A stretch of 64,000 nt of DNA from Bacteroidaceae bacterium (GTDB lineage: Bacteria > Bacteroidota > Bacteroidia > Bacteroidales > Bacteroidaceae): positions 55,480-119,479 of the forward strand of contig JAFWYF010000004.1 of NCBI GenBank assembly GCA_017522785.1, written 5' to 3'. The notes beneath the pieces are model-generated. The model was given only the letters and a program-made list of their open reading frames with translations, searched no databases and was not told the origin of the DNA. Both the position numbers and the translations under genes were made by a program. The stretch's first letter is position 1, and each line of letters begins with the position of its first letter. Shown piece by piece: positions 10,773 to 27,754 of this stretch.

Positions 10773-10819
10773 CTCTGCTCTTTTACAAGGTGCTAAGATA
10801 GTAATAATATTTATAATAA

Positions 10820-10850
10820 CCCCCAAAGTTCTTTCTACAAACTTTGGGGG
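10820..10850 (-). terminator. hairpin downstream of the 806-aa gene
   Basis: 11-bp stem cccccaaagtt / aactttggggg with a 9-nt loop, about 30 nt past the stop at 10882. The U tract is weak. Confidence 0.4.
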
Positions 10851-10881
10851 CCACCTTTGAACTGTTATATTCTACAAATAT

Positions 10882-16459: not shown

Positions 16460-17923
16460 TTATTTCCCTAAATATCTCTTTTGTAATTTAGTAGCCTCGC
16501 CCTTTGCTCTCTCAATAATAGGCTTCCACTGATAGTTGCGATATAATCCAACTACAGTACTATAAGTCATAATGATAAATGATACACAGCAAAGCACTAG
16601 AACTGCTATAATAATCAATGCCAACATCCTTGCAAAGATAAGGAAGTTTCCTGCGTCCACCTCTTTATCTTTACGAACTTGTCCATTGCTAAGATAGGTA
16701 GTAACCTCGATATCAGGCAACAATTTAGTTGCAAGAACAGTACCTAATAAAGAGGCAGCAATACCAAATGCTAAATCACGAATAGAGTTAATGAATTTAG
16801 AATCTTCCTCATATTTCACTATAACATAGCCATACTGATAGGATGCAAGAATGTAGAGAGGAGTCATTACTATAGCAAGGAAGAGCAAAAAGTTCACCCA
16901 TACGGTGCCTCCTTTTAGATGTGATACCATATCTTCACACTCCTCTATAGCAGCATCTTGAACATCGTCGAAGTCCATCTCGTTGAAATCTTCATACTTT
17001 TCGAGATACTCTTCGGCCATATCCTCATACTTCTCTTGCGAATCGAGATATTCATCTCTTTTGTCTGAATCGGCCGCTTTTGCAGCAGATTCTGCATAGT
17101 TTTCGGCACTCTCTTTAGCTTCGTAATGTTCACGATATAACATATGCAACATATATATTTTATAGTTGTTGGCATTGTCATATACGTTCGTAAAGAAGCC
17201 ACCATGTGGCGAAGGATACTCGGTCAGAATAGTATCACACTCTTGCCAATCTTCTACCAATGCAAGTCGTTGTTCAGCCTTATCAATAGCACCTTTATTT
17301 TTCATACTATAATAAAATAGTATGATGATTGATAAAAATACACCACCTATTATCATCCACGAGTGTGTCCACTGACGTGTAAGCGACCAACTGACACTGT
17401 TGCGCAACATGTTGATTCGTTCTACTAGAGTAGACTCGTGAGGGGCATCAGCTGCCTTTTCTGCCTTATCCAAAAGTTCATCGACACGCATAGCCTCTTC
17501 GGGCGATTTAATATTAAAGGCAACTCTTTCATCTTTCAATTCGCGCATTGCCAAGCTATAGGCCTCATTTGCATAAGCCCATGCCTCGTTATTAACATTT
17601 TCGCCTTCTGGTTCTTCGGGATAATCCAATGGACGGGCATAGCCTTCTTCGACACTTTTCCAAAGGCGCCACACCATTTTACATTCCAATCCATTGCTAC
17701 GTAGTTTTCGTGCCAATGTAAATGCCTTGAGCCATTTACCGGCCTCAAACACATAAGGCAGATTTCCTTGCAGGTCGCCTATTTGTGTCAGACTGAGACC
17801 AACATCATACTTTAGTATTTCAATTAATTTCTCTTTCGAAACACCGTCGATGTTTGTAAGTTTTATGTAGTACTTTTTGTATCCAAGAAAGTATACCAAC
17901 AGGAATATTAAGAGTTCAAACAT
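16460..17923 (-). CDS. polytopic membrane protein with N-terminal L7/L12-CTD-like module and a very acidic loop (operon gene 9)
   Basis: 487 aa with hydrophobic segments at about 1-15, 187-205, 350-372, 395-413 and 440-470. Residues 19-84 resemble the ribosomal L7/L12 C-terminal domain. The segment DSDKRDEYLDSQEKYEDMAEEYLEKYEDFNEMDFDD is strongly acidic. Confidence 0.8.
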   Translation of the reverse strand: MFELLIFLLVYFLGYKKYYIKLTNIDGVSKEKLIEILKYDVGLSLTQIGDLQGNLPYVFEAGKWLKAFTLARKLRSNGLECKMVWRLWKSVEEGYARPLDYPEEPEGENVNNEAWAYANEAYSLAMRELKDERVAFNIKSPEEAMRVDELLDKAEKAADAPHESTLVERINMLRNSVSWSLTRQWTHSWMIIGGVFLSIIILFYYSMKNKGAIDKAEQRLALVEDWQECDTILTEYPSPHGGFFTNVYDNANNYKIYMLHMLYREHYEAKESAENYAESAAKAADSDKRDEYLDSQEKYEDMAEEYLEKYEDFNEMDFDDVQDAAIEECEDMVSHLKGGTVWVNFLLFLAIVMTPLYILASYQYGYVIVKYEEDSKFINSIRDLAFGIAASLLGTVLATKLLPDIEVTTYLSNGQVRKDKEVDAGNFLIFARMLALIIIAVLVLCCVSFIIMTYSTVVGLYRNYQWKPIIERAKGEATKLQKRYLGK

Positions 17924-17959: not shown

Positions 17960-18760
17960 TTATGCACCTTCAGCCTCCATGAGAGCATCGAGATCCTCGG
18001 GCTCTGCATCGAGTGTCTCTCCCTCAACCTCGGGAGCAACAGCAATATTCAAACCACCCATGAGCGCCTCTTGTGCAGCAACTTCTTCGGGAGTAAGTTC
18101 GCGACCTACACTCTTATCGAGTTTAGTGATGAAACAACATTTAGAGAGAGATTTCAACTGTTCCTCGTTCCATATTCCAAGTGTAGCAGGGTCAATTGCA
18201 CCCTCTTTCATTGCCTTCCACTGCTGATACTGCTGACGACGCACTGCTGTAATTTGTTTAATCTCGGCACCACAAAGTTCAATTACTTTAGGACCCGATT
18301 TTAGATATTTACCATAGGAGAGAGCCTGTAAACCCATGTCGGGCAATGCAGTTGTAGCCGAAGCTGTGAGAACACCGATATTTGCAATATCGAGTACAAT
18401 GTTAGTACCCTGCATGATAGCATTAACCAACTGCCATGTTACTGCACCACGAGTAAGGTAAGCACCCGAAGCATCTTCCATGTGAGCCATCACATAGTCG
18501 GCACCATTCACATCACGCAATGTGTCGGTTTTAAATGTATAGGTGTTCATGCTCTCTGCAACCTTTTGAACATCGTTCCAAACGGTATCACATGTGAGCA
18601 GGTAGAGGTCGAAGTCGGCATTACCGCTAAGTTCGGGCATAACCCACTCATATTTTTTCTTCTCTTTCTTTTTCTTCTCTTTTTTAGAGGCCTCAGCATT
18701 CATTGGAGCCAACATAAGAATTGCAAGCATTGCAACCATTACTTTTGAAAGTGTTTTCAT
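17960..18760 (-). CDS. exported hypothetical protein, Lys-rich N-terminus and acidic C-terminus (operon gene 8)
   Basis: 266 aa. Signal peptide ends NA-EAS. This is followed by KKEKKKKEKKK, and the C-terminal tail is EVEGETLDAEPEDLDALMEAEGA. Confidence 0.75.
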   Translation of the reverse strand: MKTLSKVMVAMLAILMLAPMNAEASKKEKKKKEKKKYEWVMPELSGNADFDLYLLTCDTVWNDVQKVAESMNTYTFKTDTLRDVNGADYVMAHMEDASGAYLTRGAVTWQLVNAIMQGTNIVLDIANIGVLTASATTALPDMGLQALSYGKYLKSGPKVIELCGAEIKQITAVRRQQYQQWKAMKEGAIDPATLGIWNEEQLKSLSKCCFITKLDKSVGRELTPEEVAAQEALMGGLNIAVAPEVEGETLDAEPEDLDALMEAEGA

Positions 18761-18804: not shown

Positions 18805-20199
18805 TTATGGAGTAAGCACAACATCGAGTGTTTGTGTTTTATGCTCTACCGGATGCGAACATCCTTCTCCTTGGAAATAGAGATATTTAAAATCTTCGCG
18901 CATTTTTATCGAATATTTACCACCCTGAACTGTACCCACCTTCTTTAGGTTATACTTTTTTACATCCTTTATTTTGCTTATATAAATATTGGAAGCATAG
19001 ATATCCACATCTACAGGGAATATCCATCCTTCGCCTGCAGTAACTGTTCCGCTTATTACAGGATACTCCACTATCGAAGAAGGATGCTGGCCATATTTGT
19101 AATCTATCTCACGCAATAACTTCTTGTAGTACTCCATTTCGGGAAACTCATCTATCAATGTATGCAAGCGCTTACGCTCGAAATTTAGATATTTCCACAC
19201 GTTAGCCGATTCAAAACCCTCTTCGTCTGCCAGCTTGCGCCAACGCTCGTCGGCCTGATTGATAGCATTTGTGTGGTTACGTATCTTCTTGAACTTATTA
19301 GCTTGTATCTGATGAGCATCTTTTTTGTCTATAGGACATTGCAAATGTTTGCTAGCCTTTTCGTATGCATCGGCCACTGACGCAAAGTATGCACTTGTGT
19401 GCTCCTTTTCGTAGCCAGCCTCTTTATTCTGTGCAACAGCAAGCACATCTTCGTATGTCTCGTCGGTAGCCCTTACCACCATGAAGATGTAGGATGTACG
19501 ACCAACTAGTTCTTTTTGTTCAATTTGAACACTGCTAAAGTCGGGCGAACTGATTTTGAATGCTACATTACCTGTTATGTCTTTACTGCTTTTTGTCTTG
19601 GGAGCAAGATTAAAGACAATAGCATAATCTTTTTGCTCACCCACCATTTCGGCCGAAGCTTTAAAGTTACAGCCGGTTAATGTAACAGGTTTACCATTTT
19701 CTATGCATGTAATGCCATTACAAGCAATTGTAAGATTTGTAAAAGCCGACATAAATGTAACCTTTGCAGCGTTTGCGTATGGGTAGACAGCATCGGCCTC
19801 GCGATTTATTGCAACATTAATTTTCTCGTCGTATGAGCCCTCATAAACCTTTCCTTTATACATTACGAGTGGTACAGTCTCTTGCCCCATAGGCAAACGT
19901 AACTGTAGCTGTGTCTTTAGAAAGTCATCGTCATAATCCTCGGGGAATGTATAGTTTATAGTATACTTATAGCGTCCGTTACTTTCGATGCTCTTTGTAC
20001 CTTTTTCTATACCCACACTATGCGACATTATCAGATTGTCGCAATTAGATGTTACAATGATGATAGCCTCGTCAACCCCTGCTGTTTGAGTTTTACTCTC
20101 TGTTGGAGGCACAAGCGTCGTGTTGTCGTCTTGTGCCGTTGTCTTCACTACACCAAGAAACGACAAAAGCGATATAAAGATTATCTTTTTCAATTTCAT
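18805..20199 (-). CDS. exported hypothetical protein (operon gene 7)
   Basis: 464 aa. Signal peptide ends TA-QDD. The C-terminal roughly 90 aa (VISGTVTAGEGWIFPVDVDIY...) resemble a CarboxypepD_reg-like beta-sandwich (tentative). Confidence 0.75.
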   Translation of the reverse strand: MKLKKIIFISLLSFLGVVKTTAQDDNTTLVPPTESKTQTAGVDEAIIIVTSNCDNLIMSHSVGIEKGTKSIESNGRYKYTINYTFPEDYDDDFLKTQLQLRLPMGQETVPLVMYKGKVYEGSYDEKINVAINREADAVYPYANAAKVTFMSAFTNLTIACNGITCIENGKPVTLTGCNFKASAEMVGEQKDYAIVFNLAPKTKSSKDITGNVAFKISSPDFSSVQIEQKELVGRTSYIFMVVRATDETYEDVLAVAQNKEAGYEKEHTSAYFASVADAYEKASKHLQCPIDKKDAHQIQANKFKKIRNHTNAINQADERWRKLADEEGFESANVWKYLNFERKRLHTLIDEFPEMEYYKKLLREIDYKYGQHPSSIVEYPVISGTVTAGEGWIFPVDVDIYASNIYISKIKDVKKYNLKKVGTVQGGKYSIKMREDFKYLYFQGEGCSHPVEHKTQTLDVVLTP

Positions 20200-20210
20200 A
20201 GTTCTTTACA

Positions 20211-21209
20211 TTATAGGTCGATAACGAAATCTCCGGGTGTAAAAATTTCCTCTTTTGCTATTGGCTGAGTCTTGTTCTCGTCCATCCAATAGGGTTGCCA
20301 TGTACGAACATGAATCTGCACATTGTCTTTGTCGCGGAAATCCCACAAAAGGAACAAATAGCCATCGTCGCTGTAGCCACGGCTGTTTGAATATTTTTGA
20401 CGAACAGTTACACCATAGAAACCCTCCATTAGAGGATTAGGGTGTTTAACAACCTTCACATCCTCGAACTGCACATTTATCCAACTGTTGCTGGCAAAAC
20501 TTCTTTTGAGGTTTGTGATATACTCCTGTTTATTTTGTTTCTTGTATGTTACCTTGTTGTATGAGATACCCATTCCATCGGTCTTTTTAACCTTTGTTAC
20601 TGTACCTGTGATGATAAGCGCATCCTCGCTGAAGATATTCTCTAGGAAAACAATATCCTTTTCGTTATACGCTGTACGGAACTGCTCCACGTATGACAAT
20701 ATCTGCTGACGACGGCTGACCTCGGTTACATTTTTTCCCTTTTTCATCACATTCTGATAGACATTTGTGCTAAGTGTGAAATTGAAACGGGTTATTTTAC
20801 CTGTTGCATCGAAATTTATAACTGCCTCTTGATACTCATCGTCGAGTGTTTCACCATTAGGTTTTATCATCAACGGAATTTGACGTACCTGATAAGTGCT
20901 TCCCACAGACAAGCAAGATTGCACGACCTCGCTGTCATCGCAATAGAAATGAGCATTCTCCCAAAGAGCAGAAAGACCACTTACAGCACTCTCGGCAAGG
21001 CCAAGATTAACCAAGTTCAATGCACGATTTTCGTTATATGCGGCATTTATTTCTGTTAGCAAGCGACTGGCCGATTTCTCCATTTTTACTTTAAGGGCAA
21101 TATCGTACAAGCCATCAACAATCTCTAGTTTAACCCCCTCTTGTGCATTAATGGTAACAATCGACAAACAGCAGACTGCAACCATTAGCCAACGTAATAA
21201 ATTTCTCAT
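20211..21209 (-). CDS. exported hypothetical protein, possible NTF2/SnoaL-like C-terminal half (operon gene 6)
   Basis: 332 aa. Signal peptide ends NA-QEG. QQILSYVEQFRTAYNEKDIVFLENIFSEDALIITG resembles the start of an NTF2-like fold (tentative). Confidence 0.75.
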   Translation of the reverse strand: MRNLLRWLMVAVCCLSIVTINAQEGVKLEIVDGLYDIALKVKMEKSASRLLTEINAAYNENRALNLVNLGLAESAVSGLSALWENAHFYCDDSEVVQSCLSVGSTYQVRQIPLMIKPNGETLDDEYQEAVINFDATGKITRFNFTLSTNVYQNVMKKGKNVTEVSRRQQILSYVEQFRTAYNEKDIVFLENIFSEDALIITGTVTKVKKTDGMGISYNKVTYKKQNKQEYITNLKRSFASNSWINVQFEDVKVVKHPNPLMEGFYGVTVRQKYSNSRGYSDDGYLFLLWDFRDKDNVQIHVRTWQPYWMDENKTQPIAKEEIFTPGDFVIDL

Positions 21210-21228: not shown

Positions 21229-22023
21229 TTATTTTAACATAAACCAATAAGCTCCACAACCACTGAAATCAACTATATTCTTTGCACTATTATCCTTTGC
21301 ATCGGTGTATTTGTCGCCACTCTTGCGCACAATAGCTTTTATGTTACCCTCGCGTGTGTAGAACAATAGATAGCACTCATTTACAACTGTTTGAGCATTA
21401 TAACTGCCATAGTTTATTTTGCTCTCGCTTTTTAGTGAAGCAAATACAGGTTTTAAGTCGCTCATTGTTTTTGCAGCCAATATCTGCTCCAATGGAGTTA
21501 CCTCTGCAACAGACTCTTTTACAACAGGCGCTGCTTCATTTTCGACCTTTACAGAATCTGCCACTTGTGTCTCTGCAACATTTTTTGTACTATCGGACTG
21601 TGCCGGAGCGTTAATCTCGGAGAGAGCCTGCAAATCGGCTCCATTCTCTTCGTTGTTGAGAACAATTTGTCCGTCGCCATATATTAATACAATATCTTTT
21701 TTCTTCACATAGACAAAAGCACGTGTTTTTATACCACGTTTCATGTCCATCTCCTGAGCGCAAAGGTTAATATCCTGCAAAACAATCTGCTTTACCTCGG
21801 CACCGTTTCTTTTTGAAGCCACCCAATCGTTAATCTCGCCAACGAGTAACTCGCGTGCCAGACTCAAAGCCTCTTCCTCGGTGGACATGGTAGCCTCAGC
21901 CGATAGATACTGTGATGAACGTTTAATTTTGTTTATCTGCGCCTTTGTATCTGAGTTGTTCTGTGCATTAAGTATGCCACATAAGCAAATACTTAAAATA
22001 AATAGTGTGAAAAACTTTTTCAT
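21229..22023 (-). CDS. exported hypothetical protein (operon gene 5)
   Basis: 264 aa. Signal peptide ends NA-QNN. A low-complexity acidic/Val linker joins two globular halves. Confidence 0.75.
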   Translation of the reverse strand: MKKFFTLFILSICLCGILNAQNNSDTKAQINKIKRSSQYLSAEATMSTEEEALSLARELLVGEINDWVASKRNGAEVKQIVLQDINLCAQEMDMKRGIKTRAFVYVKKKDIVLIYGDGQIVLNNEENGADLQALSEINAPAQSDSTKNVAETQVADSVKVENEAAPVVKESVAEVTPLEQILAAKTMSDLKPVFASLKSESKINYGSYNAQTVVNECYLLFYTREGNIKAIVRKSGDKYTDAKDNSAKNIVDFSGCGAYWFMLK

Positions 22024-22059: not shown

Positions 22060-23046
22060 TTACTTGTCGTCGGATGCCTCGTTGAATTCGTCGAAAAGTG
22101 CCGAAATATTATGTGTAGGAACAAACAGGTTAAGGTCGCCTGTTACAGTGCCCTTTCTATCTTTAAAAACAGTGTATGGAACTTCGACATTCATCACATG
22201 ATTGTATTTAAATATGTTGTTTACAGCAAAGAATGCCACTTGAATTGAGTTGGTACCCATCTCCTCTATACCAATATATATATTACAACCTAGTACTTTA
22301 AGATAGGAGAGCCATAATTTCAAAGGTAAAGTACGCTGTTCCTTTTTTAATCCATATTTGCGCACCACCAACTCCAATGACACCTCACCGGGGGAAAGTT
22401 CCGAGAGCAAAAGATTATGACAACTCTCCAGCGGATGGTCGGCATCGAAAACCAACTGTAAGCCAGCACCACTGTTTATTAGATAGAGGTTACTGTTTAT
22501 ATCGTCTATCTGATAGGCACCACCCGGTTTCATATAATAGTTGTCGTGTAGCGGCTTCAGTTCCGATATTTCGGTAGTCAAAGTATCGACTATTCGGTAG
22601 GAGTAGTTATCCAACCCAACAAACAGGTTGTCTTCGAGCTGTTTCAGGTTCTGCCCTGTCATTAATTGACACGATGCCGGGAAAGATATCTCAATAATAG
22701 GGTTCTTGGCATTGAAGACAGCCAAACTATACCTGTTGTTCTCCTCGGCAAATGCCAACGAACTGCTATCATCTATTCGTGCCAGATTTTCAATGCGCCC
22801 TTTTGTTATGCGCACATCATCGCGCTCCATACGCGACGACTGTTCTGTAGCATTCATACCTTGCAACTCAGCCAGATAGCGTTCGACAAAATCGAACACA
22901 ACGGATATTGCCGGAATATCTTTAGATGCCTTTTGCGCCTCATCGCGTAACCTACCGCCCAAAACTCCATTATGCTGCCCCCACACAGATAGTGGGAGTA
23001 GCATAATGAAAATAGAGCAATATACTATTTTAAATAGCTTGTTCAC
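22060..23046 (-). CDS. exported hypothetical protein (operon gene 4)
   Basis: 328 aa. Signal peptide ends WG-QHN. No family recognised. Confidence 0.75.
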   Translation of the reverse strand: MNKLFKIVYCSIFIMLLPLSVWGQHNGVLGGRLRDEAQKASKDIPAISVVFDFVERYLAELQGMNATEQSSRMERDDVRITKGRIENLARIDDSSSLAFAEENNRYSLAVFNAKNPIIEISFPASCQLMTGQNLKQLEDNLFVGLDNYSYRIVDTLTTEISELKPLHDNYYMKPGGAYQIDDINSNLYLINSGAGLQLVFDADHPLESCHNLLLSELSPGEVSLELVVRKYGLKKEQRTLPLKLWLSYLKVLGCNIYIGIEEMGTNSIQVAFFAVNNIFKYNHVMNVEVPYTVFKDRKGTVTGDLNLFVPTHNISALFDEFNEASDDK

Positions 23047-23052
23047 AGGGTC

Positions 23053-23688
23053 TTAAGGAATGATTGTCTCTTTATTACCATCTTTTTTGTGCCATGTACC
23101 GGTTACAAGATGTCCATCTTCAAATATTCCGATAACCTTTTCACCCGGTTGTGCTGTACGCTTTTTAATATCGCGTTGTTCAATGATATGTGTCTCTTTG
23201 AATGTGAGTACGCCATTGTCGTCGTTCATCTTGCCATTTTTCATGCGACCTTTGTACACTGCATAACCCAAATCTTTGGTAACAACCAAATTTGGGTCGG
23301 GTGCAGGAGCCGGTGTAGGCTCTGGTTCCGGGGCAGGTGCTGGTGCAGGAGCTGGGATAGGCTCGGGGGCAGGAACAGGCTCAGGGGCAGGTGCTGGTGC
23401 AGGTTGAACTTTCTTTGGCTCTTTTGCCTTTTTATCCGATTCTGGCATAAAGAACATTGCCGCACCGCCGGCTGCAATTGCAAGAACAGCAATAATTGCT
23501 ATTATTAATCCTTTATTACCACCTTTCTTGGGAGGAGGACACTCACGCAATGCCTTTCCACACTCGGCACAAACAAATTCCTTGCGTGATGGAATCTCTT
23601 GTACCTCTTTTGCTTTTGCCTTTGAACAACCATCGTTCAAACACATTCCATATCTAAAACGAACTCTGTCGTTACTACTACTTGCCAT
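23053..23688 (-). CDS. bitopic membrane protein: zinc ribbon, TM helix, (Pro-X)19 spacer, small C-terminal globular domain (operon gene 3)
   Basis: 211 aa. Cysteines C16-x4-C21 ... C40-x2-C43; TM at about 61-81 (LIIAIIAVLAIAAGGAAMFFM). Residues 96-132 alternate Pro strictly at every second position. The C-terminal YKGRMKNGKMNDDNGVLTF ... GIFEDGHLVTGTW is MORN-like. Confidence 0.8.
   Translation of the reverse strand: MASSSNDRVRFRYGMCLNDGCSKAKAKEVQEIPSRKEFVCAECGKALRECPPPKKGGNKGLIIAIIAVLAIAAGGAAMFFMPESDKKAKEPKKVQPAPAPAPEPVPAPEPIPAPAPAPAPEPEPTPAPAPDPNLVVTKDLGYAVYKGRMKNGKMNDDNGVLTFKETHIIEQRDIKKRTAQPGEKVIGIFEDGHLVTGTWHKKDGNKETIIP
23293..23403 (-). repeat. imperfect tandem GC-rich repeat encoding the (Pro-X)19 spacer
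   Basis: Reiterated ggtgcagg/ggtgctgg/ggctcggg units are visible on the plus strand. They translate as PAPAPAPEPVPAPEPIPAPAPAPAPEPEPTPAPAPDP. Confidence 0.8.
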
Positions 23689-23724: not shown

Positions 23725-26700
23725 TTACATCATTGGAGGGGGAGGAGGTGTAGGACCACCTGCAGGAGGCAACGGTGGGAAACCGGGTGCTGCAGCAGGA
23801 GGTGCAAACAATGGTTGCAATGCAGGAACCTGTCCGGCAGGCATCCATGCGGGCATACCGTCCATCCAAACTGTGCTTTGTGCTGTCAATTGACCACCCT
23901 GTACCATTTGTTTACACTGCTCATAGGTATAAGGACCATAGTTCTGACCTGCTACAGAGAGGTAGAGACTAATCTTTGGCTCTTCAGCATGAGGTGGAGG
24001 GGGAGGAGGTGTGCTTAAGCCACCGGGAGGTGGAGGAGGCACAGCCATTCCCATTGTAGGTTGCTGAACTTGCGCAGCGGGTTGCATAGTAGCTTGTGCG
24101 GCCTTTGCAGCAACCTCTTCGGCATTTTCTACAGCAAACAATGATGGTAATTGACTACCGTCGCCCTCACTATGTAACAAAATAGAATTGCTTAAGTCTG
24201 TAGCGGGATTTCCTGTGCATAGGAACTTTTCGTAACGTTCTTTATAAGGAGTCATCCACTCGATACCACGTACAGGGAAGCAGTATGATACTGTGATAAT
24301 TGAAAGCTCGTCTTTACGTGGGCTCTTGCGATTTACAGTGATTGTGGTACGTGCTGTACTCTGATTGAACGAATTTTTAAATGCTGCCTCAAGTTTATCT
24401 GCAAATTTCTTCAGGCCCTCATTTTCATCGGGAGAAGGAATAGAAACGAGTATAGCCTTTTTGTTAATACTTGCAGGGTTTGTAGGACTTAGATTTCCTT
24501 CGTTATTACGCAAGTGCAACTGTATCTGGTCGTTGTTCAAACGAAGATATACACCACTTTGACCTACTATCTTAGAAGCAAAGGCTTTGATATCATCATC
24601 GGTCTTAAGCTTTTGTTGTAACTGTGTTAGGATATTCAGGCCCAATACCTTATTGTCGCTATCGGCCTTTTCATTGTGTTTGGTCTTTACAATTTCTGAC
24701 AACTTAACATCAAATGCATCTTTTATATCATCGATGCTGATATTGTTTGCCAAATTACCAAAGTTCAAGAAATCGCCAACAGGTAGTATAGATTCACGCA
24801 ATTGACGTGCAATATTAGGCATATCTACTTTGTCAATCTTAAGTTCTTTCTCAAACTCATCCATTGCCTCCTCTTCGCTAACCTCAATGATTGCACCCTT
24901 CATATCCTCGAGACCTTTGTTCACCTTCTTCTGTGCTGTTACCAAACGCTCGGTTTCATCGATAGCATCATTGATTTTTTGACCAAATGAAGAGATATCG
25001 GCATCCATTTTACCTATTTCAACAAATACTTTTGCTAGAAGTTTCTTTGCAAAATCCCAACCACAAAGCATTGTCTTCGATGTATAGTAATCGGTTAAAA
25101 TACCCTGATGATCGGCATAGCGACGTGCACCAACACCAACCATGCGTTGCAATATACCCAAACGGCTCCACTCCTCGACATTTACTTTGCGGTCCTCTTC
25201 GCAAGCCTCGTAATTGGTTTTTTCCTCTTTTTCTTTTACTTCGAGCTCTTCGCGCATCTCGCCCAAACGCTCAAGCAGAAGTTTTGAAACTTTCTGCAAC
25301 TCAACAATAGAAACATCACCCAATTTCCATTTCTCGAACAGTTCGACCTCAATTGTGTGGCGTATCTCACGTGCTATTTCGGGAATTACACGTTCTTTAC
25401 CTTGGAAGAATGCTTCTACACCCTCTTCTCTGAAATGCTTGTTATAGAACTCGCTCATTATAGTATCGAGTTCATTGAGCGGACAATCGGCCTTCTTTGC
25501 ATCTTCGGCATAGCCAATTGCTTTATCGTGCCAATAATCGTTAAAGCCGGGATAATCAGCATCTGATTCAAGCACTTTAGCCTCCATTGTCAAATGTAGG
25601 TCGTCGAGCATCCATTTTGCGAGATTTTCTTTGTTGAAATACTCTTTGCGATAGTCTTTGTTGCGTTCTTCATCAACATAGCCAAGATTCTCTCGCCAAT
25701 TATTATATTTAAATTGATAGAGTATACTCTCGCCCACTGTATATGTGATATGTTTGAGTACACGAAGCTCAGGATACATCACACGTTTAATTCCGAAAGA
25801 ATTGATTTTCTTGGTACGGGCAACAGGGATACGTCCGTCTGCACCGGCATTTGCAGCCTCATCATACTCCAATGCAAAATCATCCATATTCTCGAAATTG
25901 TATGCACGTATGATATCGCTATTAACCTGATCCTCTTCGTTTATAAAGAATATACGGGCAAATACATAGTCGCTGACAATTTTAGGAAGTTCTGTGAGAG
26001 AATTTATTGTTAAACCATTCTCATTCACATTACTATAAACAGTGAGACCATCTGCAACACCCTTTACGCGGTCGCTATAATATTTAGCTTGTCCACCACC
26101 TGTTACATCGCAAGGGAACCATCGACCAGCCTGCAAAGCATTCAACTCGTTCATTGCAGCGTAACCATTCTGGTAGTAACGACCTTGGTCCATATCGGCT
26201 TTGGGAAGATTCATTTCGGGAATCATTGCATAAACCGAAATTTTTGCATTTGGGAATGTTTTACGTGTTTGTACAACAACGTCGACAATTGAACCCGAAC
26301 CTGTACCACCACAAAGACCGGCAAAGATATGTATATTGGTACTTGTAGCATCGGCAGAAATAGCCTCACAACGTGCATAGGCATCACGAAGGCTATTTAC
26401 ATAACCTACAGCATTTGCAGCAAACAAAAGACGACCAGCACGACGTTTTTGTCCTGCGGCTTGACCCAACGAGCCAATAGCCGACCTTACTGCCGATACA
26501 TTATCTACTATTCCCTTTACAGAAGGATAGTTGTTTATGTGGTCGAGAATATGCTCAACATCAACAGCTTTGATATTTAAAAATTCGTTATTGGTAAACG
26601 AAGCATCCTGTCCCATTACACGAAAGTCGGGACGTGCTCTACCATCTTTTGGCATCATTTCGTCGGTTGAATCGACATACAAAAGAGCAACTGGCAATTG

Positions 26701-26823
26701 CTTGCGCTCGTCAGCTGTTGGGAACTCCTCGAACATACGCATCTTGAATGCACGCAAGATTTTACCACCTGTACCTCCTAGACCAACGAGGATGTGGTTG
26801 CTTTTACAAAAATTAGTCTCCAT
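23725..26823 (-). CDS. tubulin/FtsZ-superfamily GTPase-like protein with long helical region and C-terminal GYF-like domain (operon gene 2)
   Basis: 1032 aa. VGLGGTGGK (T1-like, nt 26761-26784); GSLGQAAGQKRRAGR (FtsZ T3-like GAGxxPxxG, nt 26431-26475); GGTGSG (tubulin signature, nt 26293-26310, checked against the nucleotides). The middle region is rich in charged heptads. The C-terminus has a W/GP/W GYF_2-like pattern between polyproline runs. Confidence 0.85.
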   Translation of the reverse strand: METNFCKSNHILVGLGGTGGKILRAFKMRMFEEFPTADERKQLPVALLYVDSTDEMMPKDGRARPDFRVMGQDASFTNNEFLNIKAVDVEHILDHINNYPSVKGIVDNVSAVRSAIGSLGQAAGQKRRAGRLLFAANAVGYVNSLRDAYARCEAISADATSTNIHIFAGLCGGTGSGSIVDVVVQTRKTFPNAKISVYAMIPEMNLPKADMDQGRYYQNGYAAMNELNALQAGRWFPCDVTGGGQAKYYSDRVKGVADGLTVYSNVNENGLTINSLTELPKIVSDYVFARIFFINEEDQVNSDIIRAYNFENMDDFALEYDEAANAGADGRIPVARTKKINSFGIKRVMYPELRVLKHITYTVGESILYQFKYNNWRENLGYVDEERNKDYRKEYFNKENLAKWMLDDLHLTMEAKVLESDADYPGFNDYWHDKAIGYAEDAKKADCPLNELDTIMSEFYNKHFREEGVEAFFQGKERVIPEIAREIRHTIEVELFEKWKLGDVSIVELQKVSKLLLERLGEMREELEVKEKEEKTNYEACEEDRKVNVEEWSRLGILQRMVGVGARRYADHQGILTDYYTSKTMLCGWDFAKKLLAKVFVEIGKMDADISSFGQKINDAIDETERLVTAQKKVNKGLEDMKGAIIEVSEEEAMDEFEKELKIDKVDMPNIARQLRESILPVGDFLNFGNLANNISIDDIKDAFDVKLSEIVKTKHNEKADSDNKVLGLNILTQLQQKLKTDDDIKAFASKIVGQSGVYLRLNNDQIQLHLRNNEGNLSPTNPASINKKAILVSIPSPDENEGLKKFADKLEAAFKNSFNQSTARTTITVNRKSPRKDELSIITVSYCFPVRGIEWMTPYKERYEKFLCTGNPATDLSNSILLHSEGDGSQLPSLFAVENAEEVAAKAAQATMQPAAQVQQPTMGMAVPPPPPGGLSTPPPPPPHAEEPKISLYLSVAGQNYGPYTYEQCKQMVQGGQLTAQSTVWMDGMPAWMPAGQVPALQPLFAPPAAAPGFPPLPPAGGPTPPPPPMM
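23734..23751 (-). repeat. 18-nt direct repeat copy A (encodes TPPPPP at the extreme C-terminus)
   Basis: tggagggggaggaggtgt is identical to the copy at 23995-24012. The copies are 261 nt (87 codons) apart and in the same frame. Confidence 0.9.
23995..24012 (-). repeat. 18-nt direct repeat copy B (encodes TPPPPP just before the GYF-like domain)
   Basis: tggagggggaggaggtgt is identical to the copy at 23734-23751. Confidence 0.9.
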
Positions 26824-26845: not shown

Positions 26846-27472
26846 TTATCTTGTTCTTCTATGTGAATGGCCACTTACACGAGGACGCGAACGGTCGCCA
26901 CCCACAGGTTGGCGTCGGCCGGCACCTTCGCGGGTTCTACCACCAGAGCCATTGTTTATTGATATTGTTTTAATTGCTATGATTGCCGAAACCACTACAA
27001 AGCCTAAGCACCAGAGCAAACGACGAAATATGAAATGGCGCATAAAACTGCGTATTTCGTCTCCTATTGCCGCTGGGAGTGTTTCGACAGTGTATCCCAT
27101 AAAATAGCCTGAACCAAAATAGTTTTCGAATATTGGAAATTCATCTATGAGCAACTGAATTACCTCTTCGCTTTCGGCAATTGAAACAGAGGAATCCAAT
27201 GACACATAGCGCATATCAAGAATTTCCTGAGTTTTTTCCTCTACAATATCGGTAAAACTGATTATTTTTATTGCTCCACAAATCATTATACACTGTACGG
27301 AAAGCAAAACGAAGAGTACAAAGCCCATGATGTAGGTTATGATTGTAAACTCTGCATTCTTCCACCATCCTTTAATGGCAAAGAAAAACAGACACATACA
27401 TACAGCGGCAATAAGTATTCCCCAAAAGAGGCTGCTTATTGAAAATTGAAGTATTTCCCAAAGTGCATTCAT
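26846..27472 (-). CDS. 3-TM membrane protein with Arg/Gly-rich C-terminal tail (operon gene 1)
   Basis: 208 aa with hydrophobic segments at about 14-33, 42-68 and 150-170. The tail is GSGGRTREGAGRRQPVGGDRSRPRVSGHSHRRTR. Confidence 0.75.
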   Translation of the reverse strand: MNALWEILQFSISSLFWGILIAAVCMCLFFFAIKGWWKNAEFTIITYIMGFVLFVLLSVQCIMICGAIKIISFTDIVEEKTQEILDMRYVSLDSSVSIAESEEVIQLLIDEFPIFENYFGSGYFMGYTVETLPAAIGDEIRSFMRHFIFRRLLWCLGFVVVSAIIAIKTISINNGSGGRTREGAGRRQPVGGDRSRPRVSGHSHRRTR

Positions 27473-27580
27473 AGTCCTAAACTTATAGTAGAAGAATTAA
27501 GATATAAGTGATGATAAAAGCCTGCACTACTAAACTATTGTAAAAGCAAGTAATACAAGCACTTATCAACAAAATAGCAG

Positions 27581-27600
27581 TCAAATCTCTTAACAAGAGA
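27581..27600. promoter_or_regulatory. hairpin motif copy 1 in the operon leader/promoter region
   Basis: tcaaatctctt-aac-aagaga. The arms tctctt/aagaga are self-complementary. It shares 11+6 nt with copy 2, with the loop inverted. Confidence 0.4.
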
Positions 27601-27614
27601 CAAACCGAATAATG

Positions 27615-27622
27615 CAAATGTA
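27615..27622 (-). promoter_or_regulatory. candidate Bacteroidetes -7 promoter element (TACATTTG) for the nine-gene operon
   Basis: This is the only exact TAnnTTTG match on the minus strand between 27473 and 27780. It would place hairpin copy 1 at the start of a leader of about 135 nt. Confidence 0.3.
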
Positions 27623-27754
27623 TACAAAATATTGAAATAATCTCTAATTTATTAAAAAAAATCTTACATACCGCAAAAATTTCTATTAAATGTTTAGCAA
27701 ATGGCTCTATATGGTATGGCATTTGTAGTTGATTATCAGCCCATTTAGATTTTG

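What the first reader, a model, noticed from the sequence alone, without database searches (positions are those of the whole stretch)
23725..26823. Atypical tubulin-superfamily architecture: N-terminal GTPase motifs, about 600 residues of helical/coiled region, then a GYF-like domain
Seen in sequence:
- VGLGGTGGK at residues 13-21.
- GSLGQAAGQKRRAGR at residues 117-131. This parallels the FtsZ T3 segment GAGxxPxxG.
- GGTGSG at residues 172-177, confirmed as ggtggtacaggttcgggt on the minus strand of 26293-26310. This is the [SAG]GGTG[SAT]G tubulin/FtsZ signature.
- Residues about 480-720 are rich in charged heptad-like sequence (LEVKEKEEKTNYEACEEDRK, VSEEEAMDEFEKELK).
- A beta-rich segment follows, then the proline-flanked GYF-like domain.

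The spacing between the T1-like and T4 motifs is about 155 residues, longer than in FtsZ or tubulin. I could not identify a T7 catalytic loop by eye, so filament-dependent GTP hydrolysis is not assured. At 1032 aa the protein is two to three times the size of canonical family members. My tentative assignment is to the poorly characterised tubulin-like (Pfam Tubulin_2) group.
Basis: partly seen in the sequence, partly recalled or inferred. Interest (0 to 1): 0.8.

Follow-up and report, generated by a model that had tools for sequence, protein, structure and literature searches.

The report
Tubulin-like GTPase heading an envelope gene cassette
The gene is a real member of the known but never-studied "FtsZ-like 1 / Tubulin_2" branch of the tubulin family; here it carries an extra GYF peptide-binding domain and leads a conserved eight-gene cluster of membrane and exported proteins in gut Bacteroidales, whose function is still unknown.

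Summary
The ORF at 23725-26823 (-) encodes 1032 aa, and every quoted motif sits at the stated residues.

- Pfam Tubulin_2 matches end to end (E=2.6e-45) and GYF_2 matches at 954-1002 (E=5e-14).
- An AlphaFold2 model of residues 1-470 (pLDDT 90.6) hits only tubulin/FtsZ-superfamily structures in the PDB.

The "atypical" architecture is the norm for the FtsZl1 family described by Makarova and Koonin in 2010. That family has an FtsZ-like N-domain with inserts between T1 and T4, a long helical stalk, and a C-terminal domain with no obvious T7 loop.

Three things are specific here:
- The GYF fusion occurs in only 3 of 149 family representatives.
- A cassette conserved in about 70 Bacteroidales species encodes a polytopic membrane protein, the tubulin-like protein, a zinc-ribbon/TM/Pro-rich/MORN-like connector and 4-5 fast-evolving exported proteins. 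It lacks the vWA, GTPase and OmpA partners reported for other FtsZl1 loci.
- A candidate T7-like motif, E311-N312...E319, is near-invariant.

My best reading is a GTP-dependent cytoplasmic scaffold or switch tethered to a trans-envelope complex. Whether that complex remodels the envelope or acts as a surveillance/defence system is unresolved.

Verdict: a new variant of a known, uncharacterised family, of moderate interest.

The parts
23725..26823 (-). Complete ORF, 1032 aa: an FtsZl1/Tubulin_2-family protein with a C-terminal GYF_2 domain.
   Evidence: A 100% identical protein is in NCBI as 'DUF4339 domain-containing protein [Bacteroidaceae bacterium]'.
25723..26793 (-). Tubulin_2 (FtsZ/tubulin-fold GTPase) domain, residues 11-367.
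   Evidence: Pfam E=2.6e-45. AF2 pLDDT 90.6. Foldseek against the PDB: CetZ 3zid E=2.9e-8; tubulins, TubZ, PhuZ, FtsZ and BtubA follow.
26764..26784 (-). T1 loop G14-L-G-G-T-G-G20.
   Evidence: G16, G17 and G19 are invariant in 91 diverse family members.
26431..26475 (-). T3-region motif GSLGQAAGQKRRAGR (117-131). Q125, R127, R128, G130 and R131 are invariant or near-invariant.
   Evidence: The loop lies just before helix H3 in the model. Its equivalence to T3 is tentative.
26293..26310 (-). T4 signature G172-G-T-G-S-G177.
   Evidence: It aligns to beta-tubulin GGGTGSG.
26014..26031 (-). T6-like N265-V-N267-E-N-G, directly after strand S6. N267 is kept in 85/91 sequences.
   Evidence: The T6 assignment is inferred from position.
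25867..25893 (-). Candidate T7-like acidic motif E311-N312-M-D-D-F-A-L-E319, at the end of helix 299-312.
   Evidence: E311 is kept in 87/91 sequences, N312 in 78/91 and E319 in 89/91. Its role is inferred and was not confirmed by superposition.
24559..25545 (-). Helical region, residues about 427-755. It includes a stalk-like pair of long helices at 506-554 and 564-634.
   Evidence: AF2 model of residues 401-1032, pLDDT 86.9. Only weak Foldseek matches, to antiparallel coiled-coil stalks.
24175..24462 (-). Alpha/beta domain, residues 788-883, conserved across the family (P796, P850, R852, E886).
   Evidence: Weak, non-significant tubulin-family Foldseek hits; its identity is unresolved.
23974..24084 (-). 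Disordered proline-rich linker, residues about 914-950 (VPPPPPGGLSTPPPPPP).
   Evidence: pLDDT below 50. 27% Pro.
23818..23964 (-). GYF_2 (DUF4339) domain, residues 954-1002.
   Evidence: Pfam E=5.2e-14. PDB 7z3c GltJ GYF: sequence E=1e-3 and Foldseek probability 1.0.
23728..23805 (-). Conserved proline-rich C-terminal tail, residues 1007-1032 (…PPLPPAGGPTPPPPPMM).
   Evidence: Conserved in 16 Bacteroidales homologues. Disordered in the model.
26846..27472 (-). g208: polytopic inner-membrane protein with an Arg-rich C-tail. It is the first gene of the cassette.
   Evidence: Sequence. Present at position -1 in 72 of 80 related loci.
23053..23688 (-). g211: cytoplasmic zinc ribbon (C16, C21, C40, C43), one TM helix, a PAPAPEP-type spacer and a MORN-like C-terminal domain.
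   Evidence: Position +1 in 71 of 80 loci. A ZnR-TM protein also follows the tubulin gene in the distant loci L081, L082, L083, L085 and L089.
22060..23046 (-). g328: exported protein with no known domain.
   Evidence: Position +2 in 72 loci at a median of 25% identity. No PDB relative.
21229..22023 (-). g264: exported protein with no known domain.
20211..21209 (-). g332: exported protein with a weak NTF2-like (Cds6_C) C-terminal half. It is the best-conserved exported partner.
   Evidence: Position +4 in 71 loci. 49.5% identical in the distant locus L082.
18805..20199 (-). g464: exported protein of the variable 'F5' family. Members elsewhere carry BACON, PEGA, WG-repeat or Sel1 domains.
17960..18760 (-). 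g266: exported, Lys-rich protein, usually the last conserved gene of the cassette.

Best explanation
The ORF encodes a member of the FtsZl1 (Pfam Tubulin_2) branch of the FtsZ/tubulin superfamily.

Domain order:
- a tubulin-fold GTP-binding domain (about residues 8-385)
- a helical stalk of about 330 residues
- a small alpha/beta domain
- in this Bacteroidales clade only, a Pro-rich linker, a GYF_2 domain and a Pro-rich tail

It is the cytoplasmic and by far the most conserved product of an eight-gene cassette: g208, TUB, g211, g328, g264, g332, g464 and g266.

Proposed mechanism; every step is inferred and none is shown:
1. The protein binds GTP and self-assembles, or switches conformation, at the inner face of the cytoplasmic membrane.
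2. It is held there by the conserved cytoplasmic zinc ribbon of the adjacent bitopic protein g211 and/or by its own GYF domain binding Pro-rich peptides. Candidate peptides are its own tails in trans, or the juxtamembrane CPPPK of g211.
3. Through g211's TM helix, rigid Pro-rich spacer and MORN-like tip, it is coupled to a periplasmic or outer-envelope complex built from the exported, rapidly diverging partners.

In short, it is a nucleotide-dependent cytoplasmic scaffold or switch of a trans-envelope machine. The data do not decide what that machine does (envelope or vesicle remodelling versus envelope surveillance).
For: Identity:
- Pfam Tubulin_2 and GYF_2 match.
- The AF2 model has pLDDT 90.6, and its top PDB fold matches are exclusively tubulin-superfamily.
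- Nucleotide-binding motifs T1, T2, T4, T5/H5 and T6 are invariant or near-invariant across 91 members at 27-80% identity.
- The family description in PMC2875224 fits.

Cassette:
- The same gene order occurs in about 70 of 80 Bacteroidales loci, while the flanking genes differ.
- Median identity is 74.5% for TUB against 25-42% for its partners.
- Orthologues of g211, g328, g264, g332 and g266 follow a 36%-identical tubulin gene in a 55% GC contig.

Membrane coupling:
- A ZnR-TM protein lies immediately downstream, and a polytopic membrane protein upstream, in most of the distant loci examined.
- The zinc ribbon is the conserved part of g211.
- All other partners have signal peptides.

GYF logic:
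- The bacterial GYF domain of GltJ binds a Pro-rich sequence of a coiled-coil protein.
- 44% of bacterial GYF proteins carry an adjacent zinc ribbon, proposed to act as a switch module upstream of membrane receptor modules (PMC11135422).
Against: There is no experimental data for any FtsZl1 protein.

Open points on assembly:
- T7 is only a candidate. Profile alignments beyond T5 are unreliable.
- No tubulin-type C-terminal activation domain could be assigned.
- Polymerisation and assembly-stimulated GTPase activity are therefore not assured.

Open points on coupling:
- No direct evidence exists for a TUB-g211 or a GYF-peptide contact.
- The long Pro-rich stretch of g211 is predicted to be periplasmic, so it cannot be the GYF ligand.
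- Most family members work without a GYF domain, so GYF cannot be essential to the core mechanism.
Confidence: 0.55

Rival explanations
1. Envelope-surveillance conflict or defence system. The variable exported proteins sense an invader or envelope damage. g211-type connectors pass the signal inward. The tubulin-like GTPase then assembles as an NTP-dependent threshold device that triggers effectors. This is a functional reading of the same anatomy, not a different anatomy.
For: - Exported partners diverge very fast (22-30% identity) while TUB stays at 61-91%.
- Exported partners elsewhere carry swappable ligand-binding domains: BACON, PEGA, WG repeats, Sel1, Big_2 and FGE-sulfatase.
- Related cassettes end in a caspase-domain protein, a Trypsin_2 lipoprotein, and a TIR_2-TM-MORN-like protein.
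- Distribution is patchy and the genomic neighbourhood is not conserved.
- Some relatives lie next to toxin-antitoxin, restriction-modification or integrase genes.
- Kaur et al. 2020 interpret other tubulin-containing FtsZl1 neighbourhoods as conflict systems.
Against: - No PADLOC model matches any cassette protein.
- No recognisable effector is present in this window's cassette.
- The peptidases seen elsewhere are exported, not cytoplasmic.
- The defining partners of the Kaur systems (GAP1 GTPase, vWA, HSP70) are absent.
- In this genome the cassette sits among housekeeping genes.
Confidence: 0.3
2. Envelope-remodelling or surface-structure machine, as in the original Makarova-Koonin proposal. 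FtsZl1 filaments shape or organise the membrane, or position a periplasm-spanning structure, for example for vesicle biogenesis or anchoring of a surface layer.
For: - Many co-conserved membrane and exported partners keep a fixed gene order across phyla.
- g211 has a TonB/GltJ-like TM-plus-Pro-rich-spacer architecture.
- The closest 2010 relatives (Minf_1491, Pnap_3261) sit next to OmpA-type partners.
- TUB is under very strong purifying selection, as expected for a polymer with many interfaces.
Against: - No phenotype is known.
- Distribution among Bacteroidales is patchy, which argues against a core envelope function.
- The rapid turnover of the exported partners is unusual for a structural machine.
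Confidence: 0.3
3. Non-polymerising GTPase. The tubulin fold is kept only as a nucleotide-binding switch or as an inactive scaffold, and the stalk and GYF domain do the work.
For: - Makarova and Koonin could not find T6-H7/T7 or the C-terminal domain, and they noted the protein might not form filaments.
- TM-scores to tubulins are modest at 0.31-0.49.
- No significant match to a tubulin C-domain was found.
Against: - All nucleotide-contacting motifs are invariant across the family, which argues against an inactive scaffold.
- Near-invariant acidic residues sit where T7 is expected.
- A tandem pair of paralogues in L082 recalls heterodimeric tubulins.
Confidence: 0.2
4. A divergent cell-division FtsZ, or a TubZ/PhuZ-type DNA-segregation tubulin of a mobile element.
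For: It shares the superfamily fold.
Against: - No FtsZ_C domain is found, and the Pfam Tubulin model scores below its cut-off (20.8 bits against 33).
- The N-domain is essentially absent from 50,697 phage records (1 weak hit) and 72,556 plasmid records (2 hits, both on large non-mobilizable replicons of 271 kb and 1.09 Mb).
- The window is chromosomal, with RRF, RsgA, ParE/GyrB-type, TopA and PEPCK genes.
- The partners are envelope proteins, not DNA-binding adaptors.
Confidence: 0.03
5. The glycine-rich motifs belong to a P-loop or other NTPase fold, so the tubulin resemblance is spurious.
For: None was found.
Against: The Pfam Tubulin_2 match is end to end. 430 PDB fold matches have E<=1e-3, and the top 50 are all tubulin/FtsZ superfamily.
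Confidence: 0.01

Closest known systems
FtsZl1 family (Makarova and Koonin 2010, Biol Direct 5:33), which corresponds to Pfam Tubulin_2 PF13809
   Same: - About 1000 aa.
- N-terminal FtsZ-like domain with a GGTGSG T4 loop and large inserts between T1 and T4.
- A long helical or coiled-coil middle region and a further C-terminal domain.
- No easily alignable T7.
- Operon partners are membrane-associated and lineage-specific.
- The N-terminus closely resembles the Methylacidiphilum Minf_1491 and Polaromonas Pnap_3261 members.
   Different: - The C-terminal module is replaced by a Pro-rich linker, a GYF_2 domain and a Pro-rich tail. Only 3 of 149 representatives have this.
- The partners are not vWA, the novel GTPase, a protein kinase or OmpA.
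- Instead there is a fixed set: a polytopic membrane protein, a ZnR-TM-MORN-like connector and 4-5 exported proteins.
- This subgroup and its cassette are not in the 2010 lists, which contain no Prevotella-type entry.
Myxococcus GltJ-AglZ module of the Agl-Glt focal-adhesion machine (Attia et al. 2024, PMC11135422)
   Same: - The same building blocks are present: a cytoplasmic zinc ribbon, a bacterial GYF domain, Pro-rich sequences, a long coiled-coil protein, and a bitopic membrane protein with a Pro-rich periplasmic spacer.
- All are linked to a nucleotide switch and a trans-envelope complex.
- The GYF domain here is the closest solved relative of GltJ GYF.
   Different: - The domains are distributed differently. 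GYF is on the GTPase/coiled-coil protein, and the zinc ribbon is on the neighbouring membrane protein.
- The GTPase is tubulin-fold, not the Ras-like MglA.
- No Agl/Glt homologues are present.
- I know of no gliding motility in these gut anaerobes.
- This is an analogy, not family membership.
Tubulin-containing GAP1-N2 GTPase-centric conflict systems (Kaur, Burroughs, Iyer and Aravind 2020, PMC7159879)
   Same: Tubulin-domain proteins fused to a C-terminal coiled coil, placed in multi-gene neighbourhoods with variable exported or membrane components and occasional peptidase or TIR-type components.
   Different: The defining GAP1 GTPase, vWA and HSP70 genes are absent. The taxonomy also differs: those systems are in Firmicutes and Actinobacteria, and this one is in Bacteroidales.
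CetZ, tubulin, TubZ, PhuZ and FtsZ (solved structures)
   Same: The GTPase-domain fold and the T1/T4 motifs. The S4-T4-H4-S5 segment is most like beta-tubulin in sequence.
   Different: - 10-16% identity and TM-scores of only 0.31-0.49.
- About 70 extra residues between S2/S3 and H3.
- No recognisable FtsZ_C or Tubulin_C domain.
- An extension of more than 600 residues.

Membership tests
Pfam Tubulin_2 (PF13809) / FtsZl1 | Family HMM match above the curated cut-off, covering the whole model. | tested here: met
   155.6 bits against a cut-off of 27, E=2.6e-45, profile positions 1-354 of 356. All 48 diverse relatives also match.
Pfam Tubulin_2 (PF13809) / FtsZl1 | Architecture: N-terminal FtsZ-like domain, extended coiled-coil or helical region and a further C-terminal domain, about 1000 aa in all. 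| tested here: met
   AF2 models. Most representatives are about 1000 aa.
Pfam Tubulin_2 (PF13809) / FtsZl1 | GGGTG(S/T)G-type T4 loop and family-specific inserts between T1 and T4. | tested here: met
   C-G-G-T-G-S-G at residues 171-177. T1-T4 spacing is about 158 residues.
Pfam Tubulin_2 (PF13809) / FtsZl1 | Typical operon partners: vWA protein, diverged P-loop GTPase, Ser/Thr kinase or OmpA-like protein. | tested here: not met
   None of the eight neighbours has such a domain. The 2010 paper treats these partners as frequent, not obligatory. Lineage-specific membrane partners, which it also describes, are present.
FtsZ/tubulin superfamily | Tubulin/FtsZ GTPase-domain fold. | tested here: met
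   Foldseek against the PDB gives 430 hits with E<=1e-3, and the top 50 are all superfamily members.
FtsZ/tubulin superfamily | T7 loop with a catalytic acidic residue that completes the active site of the neighbouring subunit. | tested here: inconclusive
   A near-invariant E311-N312...E319 follows helix 299-312. No reliable alignment or superposition to a known T7 was obtained.
FtsZ/tubulin superfamily | C-terminal (activation/intermediate) domain. | tested here: inconclusive
   - No FtsZ_C or Tubulin_C hit.
- Small beta elements at residues 318-383.
- The alpha/beta domain at 788-883 gives only weak tubulin-family Foldseek hits, E about 1-2.
- Nothing by hhalign.
FtsZ/tubulin superfamily | GTP binding, GTP hydrolysis and protofilament formation. 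| not testable with these tools
   This needs purified protein.
Canonical FtsZ (cell division) | Pfam Tubulin (PF00091) plus FtsZ_C above cut-off, and a short conserved C-terminal peptide that binds FtsA/ZipA. | tested here: not met
   PF00091 scores 20.8 bits against a cut-off of 33, and FtsZ_C is absent.
GYF_2 (PF14237, DUF4339) bacterial GYF domain | HMM match above cut-off and a GYF fold. | tested here: met
   52.2 bits against a cut-off of 25.8. GltJ GYF 7z3c matches by sequence at E=1e-3. Foldseek probability is 0.99-1.0 to the GltJ, Smy2 and GIGYF GYF domains.
GYF_2 (PF14237, DUF4339) bacterial GYF domain | Binding of a proline-rich ligand. | not testable with these tools
   Candidate ligands are only inferred: the protein's own Pro-rich flanks, and CPPPK of g211.
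GAP1-N2/tubulin conflict systems (Kaur 2020) | Linked GAP1-type TRAFAC GTPase, vWA proteins and (in some) HSP70. | tested here: not met
   Pfam, NCBIfam and PADLOC scans of all neighbours are negative.
TubZ/PhuZ segregation tubulins | Encoded on plasmids or phages together with a DNA-binding adaptor. | tested here: not met
   One weak phage hit and two hits on large plasmid-annotated replicons. The context here is chromosomal.

The most novel reading that the evidence does not exclude
A tubulin-superfamily GTPase acts as the cytoplasmic engine or threshold switch of a previously unrecognised trans-envelope apparatus in Gram-negative gut bacteria. It is wired to the periplasm through a split zinc-ribbon/GYF module and a TM-spacer-MORN connector. 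Its outward-facing, rapidly diversifying binding proteins make it an envelope-level sensing or immune device, or a new tubulin-driven envelope machine. Either outcome would be the first assigned function for the FtsZl1 branch.
Probability: 0.3. Interest if true: 0.8.

Novelty: new variant of a known kind. Interest (0 to 1): 0.5.

Why it matters
FtsZl1/Tubulin_2 is one of the most divergent branches of the tubulin superfamily. I found no functional study of it in the searchable literature since its description in 2010.

This subgroup offers a well-defined and strongly conserved genetic unit in animal-gut and rumen Bacteroidales. At least two named, apparently cultured carriers exist: Xylanibacter brevis ATCC 19188 and Prevotella sp. 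MGM1. The family's function could therefore be tested directly.

The work also produces concrete predictions:
- The adjacent zinc-ribbon membrane protein is the conserved partner.
- GYF/Pro-rich contacts contribute to tethering or assembly.
- E311 and E319 are the candidate T7 residues.

If the protein polymerises, it would extend tubulin-type cytomotive or scaffold function to an envelope-spanning system. If it does not, it would show a tubulin fold reused as a pure switch.

Tried and rejected
- P-loop or other fold for the N-domain: rejected.
- Cell-division FtsZ paralogue and TubZ/PhuZ-type segregation tubulin: rejected.
- Membership in the vWA/GTPase/HSP70 tubulin conflict systems: the defining partners are absent.
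- Known defence systems: PADLOC gave nothing meaningful for TUB or its neighbours. The only hits were two weak ones, E about 1e-3, both to low-complexity regions.
- NCBIfam: no hit for TUB. The g211 hits are driven only by the TM segment plus Pro-rich low complexity, matching TonB, GltJ and SslE.
- PDB sequence search with TUB alone or with the family profile: only the GYF domain, plus marginal beta-tubulin T4 hits.
- Profile searches of g332 and g328 against the PDB: nothing significant.
- Locating T7 by hhalign against E. coli FtsZ and human alpha/beta-tubulin. Only S1-T2 and S3-T5 aligned with any confidence.
- Testing whether the alpha/beta domain at 788-883 is a displaced tubulin C-domain: hhalign found nothing significant, the strand/helix order differs from FtsZ, and the question stays unresolved.
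- The sigma-70 promoter and terminator scan is uninformative for a Bacteroidota operon.
- A literature search for 'Cds6', the weak Pfam hit of g332, led nowhere.
- The Paraburkholderia plasmid (1.09 Mb) hit has no annotation.
- Model coordinates are not exposed, so I could not do my own superposition.

Full report
**1. The observation**

The minus-strand ORF 23725-26823 is intact and encodes 1032 aa. The GGTGSG codons are at 26310-26293.

The signal is far above chance:
- Pfam Tubulin_2 (PF13809) matches residues 11-367 over the whole profile, at 155.6 bits and E=2.6e-45.
- GYF_2 (PF14237) matches residues 954-1002 at E=5e-14.
- The canonical Tubulin/FtsZ model gives only a sub-threshold hit, around the T4 loop.
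- NCBIfam and PADLOC have no model for the protein.

An identical protein is already in NCBI as [quoted passage not shown]. More than 120 homologues at 75-84% identity show the same two Pfam domains. One of them is named "tubulin-like domain-containing protein".

**2. The fold**

I aligned 91 family members at 27-80% identity and predicted residues 1-470. The model has mean pLDDT 90.6 and pTM 0.76.

Foldseek against the PDB returned 430 matches with E<=1e-3. The first 50 are all members of the FtsZ/tubulin superfamily: CetZ 3zid at E=2.9e-8, then gamma- and beta-tubulin, TubZ, PhuZ, FtsZ 1w5e and BtubA.

Similarity is nevertheless remote. Identity is 10-16% and TM-scores are 0.31-0.49. Sequence-only searches of the PDB reach only marginal beta-tubulin hits at S4-T4-H4-S5, where FHIxxGLAGGTGSGsivDviaqirkkYPD resembles [29 protein letters not shown]. 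hhalign against beta-tubulin gave 77-81% probability over S3-T5.

**3. Motifs**

Across the 91 sequences, these positions are invariant or nearly so:
- T1: G14, G16, G17, T18, G19, G20
- T2: Y49, D51
- Before helix H3: Q125, R127, R128, G130, R131
- T4 and just after: G169, G172-G-T-G-x-G177, D181
- T5/H5: P202, Y216, N219, Y221, E226
- T6-like: N267 in N-x-N-E-N-G, directly after strand S6; compare tubulin DNEA
- After helix 299-312: E311 (87/91), N312 (78/91), E319 (89/91)

The last group recalls the T7 patterns N-x-D-x-x-D/E of FtsZ and tubulin, with altered spacing. I regard it as a candidate T7.

The protein should therefore bind guanine nucleotide. Whether hydrolysis depends on assembly is open.

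**4. The rest of the protein**

A second model, of residues 401-1032, has pLDDT 86.9. It shows:
- helices from about 427 to 755, including two very long ones (506-554 and 564-634) that look like an antiparallel stalk
- an alpha/beta domain at 788-883 that is conserved family-wide
- a helix at 901-913
- a disordered Pro-rich linker
- the GYF domain at 953-1006
- a disordered but conserved Pro-rich tail ending in PPPPPMM

Foldseek recognises the GYF domain (GltJ 7z3c, Smy2, GIGYF1/2; probability 0.99-1.0). It gives only weak stalk-like hits for the helices. It also gives many non-significant hits to tubulin-family chains, with E about 1-2. I could not substantiate those.

**5. This is a known family**

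Makarova and Koonin (2010, PMC2875224) defined FtsZl1 as proteins of about 1000 aa with the following features:
- family-specific inserts between T1 and T4
- an extended coiled coil
- an alpha-helical C-terminal domain
- no confidently identifiable T6-H7/T7 or tubulin-type C-domain

They noted these proteins may polymerise by a novel mechanism or not at all. A later survey equates the Tubulin_2 Pfam domain with these "FtsZ-like" proteins.

The N-terminus here (NHILVGLGGTGGKILRAFK) closely resembles the Methylacidiphilum Minf_1491 and Polaromonas Pnap_3261 members. Both of those sit next to OmpA-type genes.

I found no functional study of the family.

**6. What is specific here: the GYF fusion**

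A search of the 50%-identity representative library with residues 1-470 found 1121 relatives, 240 of them below E=1e-30. Most are about 1000 aa. Only 3 of the 149 retrieved representatives carry the GYF domain, and all three are at least 56% identical in the N-domain. In the others a different module of about 130 residues occupies the C-terminus.

**7. What is specific here: the cassette**

In 80 genome loci from Bacteroidales, one gene order recurs. The taxa include Prevotella/Xylanibacter (among them X. brevis ATCC 19188), Paraprevotella, Bacteroidaceae, Paludibacteraceae, Muribaculaceae and Alloprevotella, mostly MAGs from rumen or gut.

| Gene | Loci | Position relative to TUB |
|---|---|---|
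| g208 | 72 | -1 |
| TUB | 79 | 0 |
| g211 | 71 | +1 |
| g328 | 72 | +2 |
| g264 | 63 | +3 |
| g332 | 71 | +4 |
| variable "F5" family, including window g464 | 65 | +5 |
| g266 | 42 | +6 |

No flanking gene is shared.

TUB is 61-91% identical across these taxa, with a median of 74.5%. The partners have medians of only 25-42%.

In the window the genes are 6-44 nt apart. They sit among housekeeping genes: RRF, RsgA, a ThiF-family protein, ROK kinase, PEPCK and topoisomerases.

The partners are as follows:
- g208 is a polytopic membrane protein with an Arg-rich tail.
- g211 has a strongly conserved N-terminal zinc ribbon, one TM helix, a PAPAPEP spacer and a MORN-like C-terminal domain. The MORN call is by eye, from the pattern YxGxxxxGxxxGxG; Pfam did not call it.
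- The remaining partners all have signal peptides and no informative domain, apart from a weak NTF2-like hit in g332.

None of the partners is a vWA protein, a GTPase, a kinase or an OmpA protein. This cassette therefore differs from the published FtsZl1 neighbourhoods.

**8. The core is older than the Bacteroidales clade**

- A 55% GC contig (L082) carries two tandem Tubulin_2 genes followed by orthologues of g211, g328, g264, g332 (49.5% identical) and g266.
- In five distant loci (L081, L082, L083, L085, L089) a ZnR-TM protein immediately follows the tubulin gene. In four of them (L082, L083, L085, L089) a polytopic membrane protein precedes it.
- The periplasmic part of the connector varies between a Pro-rich spacer and Big_2 Ig domains.
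- F5-family members carry BACON, PEGA, WG-repeat or Sel1 domains; FGE-sulfatase and other domains also occur among the cassette partners scanned.
- Some variants add an exported caspase-domain protein, Trypsin_2 lipoproteins, or a TIR_2-TM-MORN-like protein that shares its periplasmic module with g211.

**9. How it most likely works**

All of this is inferred. The most economical reading is that the tubulin-like protein is the nucleotide-dependent cytoplasmic scaffold or switch of a trans-envelope complex.

Membrane tethering is most plausibly through the adjacent zinc-ribbon protein. That protein is the partner conserved family-wide and the only conserved cytoplasmic domain besides the g208 tail.

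In the Bacteroidales clade, GYF binding to Pro-rich peptides probably adds to this. The only bacterial GYF domain studied, in GltJ, binds the Pro-rich sequence of a coiled-coil protein. Also, 44% of bacterial GYF proteins carry an adjacent zinc ribbon, proposed to act as a switch upstream of membrane receptor modules (PMC11135422). Here that ZnR/GYF pair is split between two neighbouring gene products.

What the complex does is undecided. Two readings compete:
- Surveillance or conflict role, as Kaur et al. proposed for other tubulin-containing neighbourhoods. In favour: fast-evolving, domain-swapping exported partners, patchy distribution, variable genomic location, and peripheral peptidase or TIR genes.
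- Structural or remodelling machine, the original 2010 proposal. In favour: no PADLOC hit, no effector in this cassette, exported rather than cytoplasmic peptidases, and a fixed multi-gene order.

I give each of these about 0.3 within the general model.

The protein is not a mobile-element segregation tubulin. The N-domain is essentially absent from phage and plasmid collections.

**10. Verdict**

It is a new variant of a known but functionally uncharacterised family. The variant is defined by the GYF fusion and by a distinct conserved envelope cassette with a zinc-ribbon membrane partner.

Interest is moderate. It is not a new fold or a new family. It does offer a tractable entry point to a question open for 15 years, and it gives specific residues and partners to test.

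Noticed in passing
window 16460-17923 (-): A 487-aa polytopic membrane protein begins 36 nt downstream of g266, so it is probably co-transcribed. It has no homologue in any of the 80 related loci and no domain hit. It may be a lineage-specific add-on to the cassette.
   Followed up: partly
window 27483-27722 (-): The 79-aa ORF upstream of g208 lies in the AT-rich intergenic or promoter region shared with the divergent ThiF-family gene. It has no counterpart in related loci and is probably not a gene.
   Followed up: partly
L082:199-8238: Two tandem Tubulin_2 paralogues (1020 and 1032 aa) in a 55% GC contig, each preceded by membrane proteins. The second is followed by the same downstream cassette. 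This recalls heterodimeric tubulins such as BtubA/B.
   Followed up: no
L089:19898-21891: Downstream of a 48%-identical, GYF-less tubulin cassette lie a Trypsin_2 lipoprotein and a protein with an N-terminal TIR_2 domain, one TM helix and a MORN-like periplasmic end like that of g211. A HipA toxin-antitoxin pair and a phage lysozyme gene lie upstream.
   Followed up: partly
L059:21022-22689 (the same family is present in L064 and L066): In Paludibacteraceae loci the cassette ends with an exported 556-aa protein carrying a Peptidase_C14 (caspase) domain.
   Followed up: partly
L015, L019, L037 (about 7 genes downstream of TUB): A second, shorter Tubulin_2-family ORF (about 560-580 aa) lies just after g266 in three Bacteroidaceae loci.
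   Followed up: no
L067 (Xylanibacter muris), about 10001-13111: In this cultured strain the tubulin-like gene appears as two consecutive ORFs of 755 and 265 aa, 63 nt apart. This could be a frameshift, a pseudogene or a sequencing error.
   Followed up: no
window residues 332-351 and 464-469 of the ORF (about 25771-25830 and 25417-25434): A basic beta-hairpin, R336-x-K-K-x-x-x-F343-G344-I-K-R347...P351, and the invariant pair R465/G468 are as conserved as the nucleotide-binding loops across the family. They have no counterpart that I can name in FtsZ or tubulin.
   Followed up: no
model of residues 401-1032 (window about 23728-25623): More than 20 of the top 50 Foldseek matches of the C-terminal model are tubulin, TubZ, FtsZ or BtubA chains at non-significant E-values (about 0.7-2, around 100-190 columns). 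Rid and IspF folds also appear. This could mean the alpha/beta domain at 788-883 is a displaced tubulin-type C-domain, or it could be noise.
   Followed up: partly
L085/L086 (Larkinella, Cytophagales): A 31%-identical family member sits between an OmpA-domain gene, an Ig_7/Por_Secre_tail (T9SS cargo) gene and a ZnR-TM protein. A DUF3871 gene, an HSDR_N-like gene and a tyrosine integrase lie nearby.
   Followed up: no
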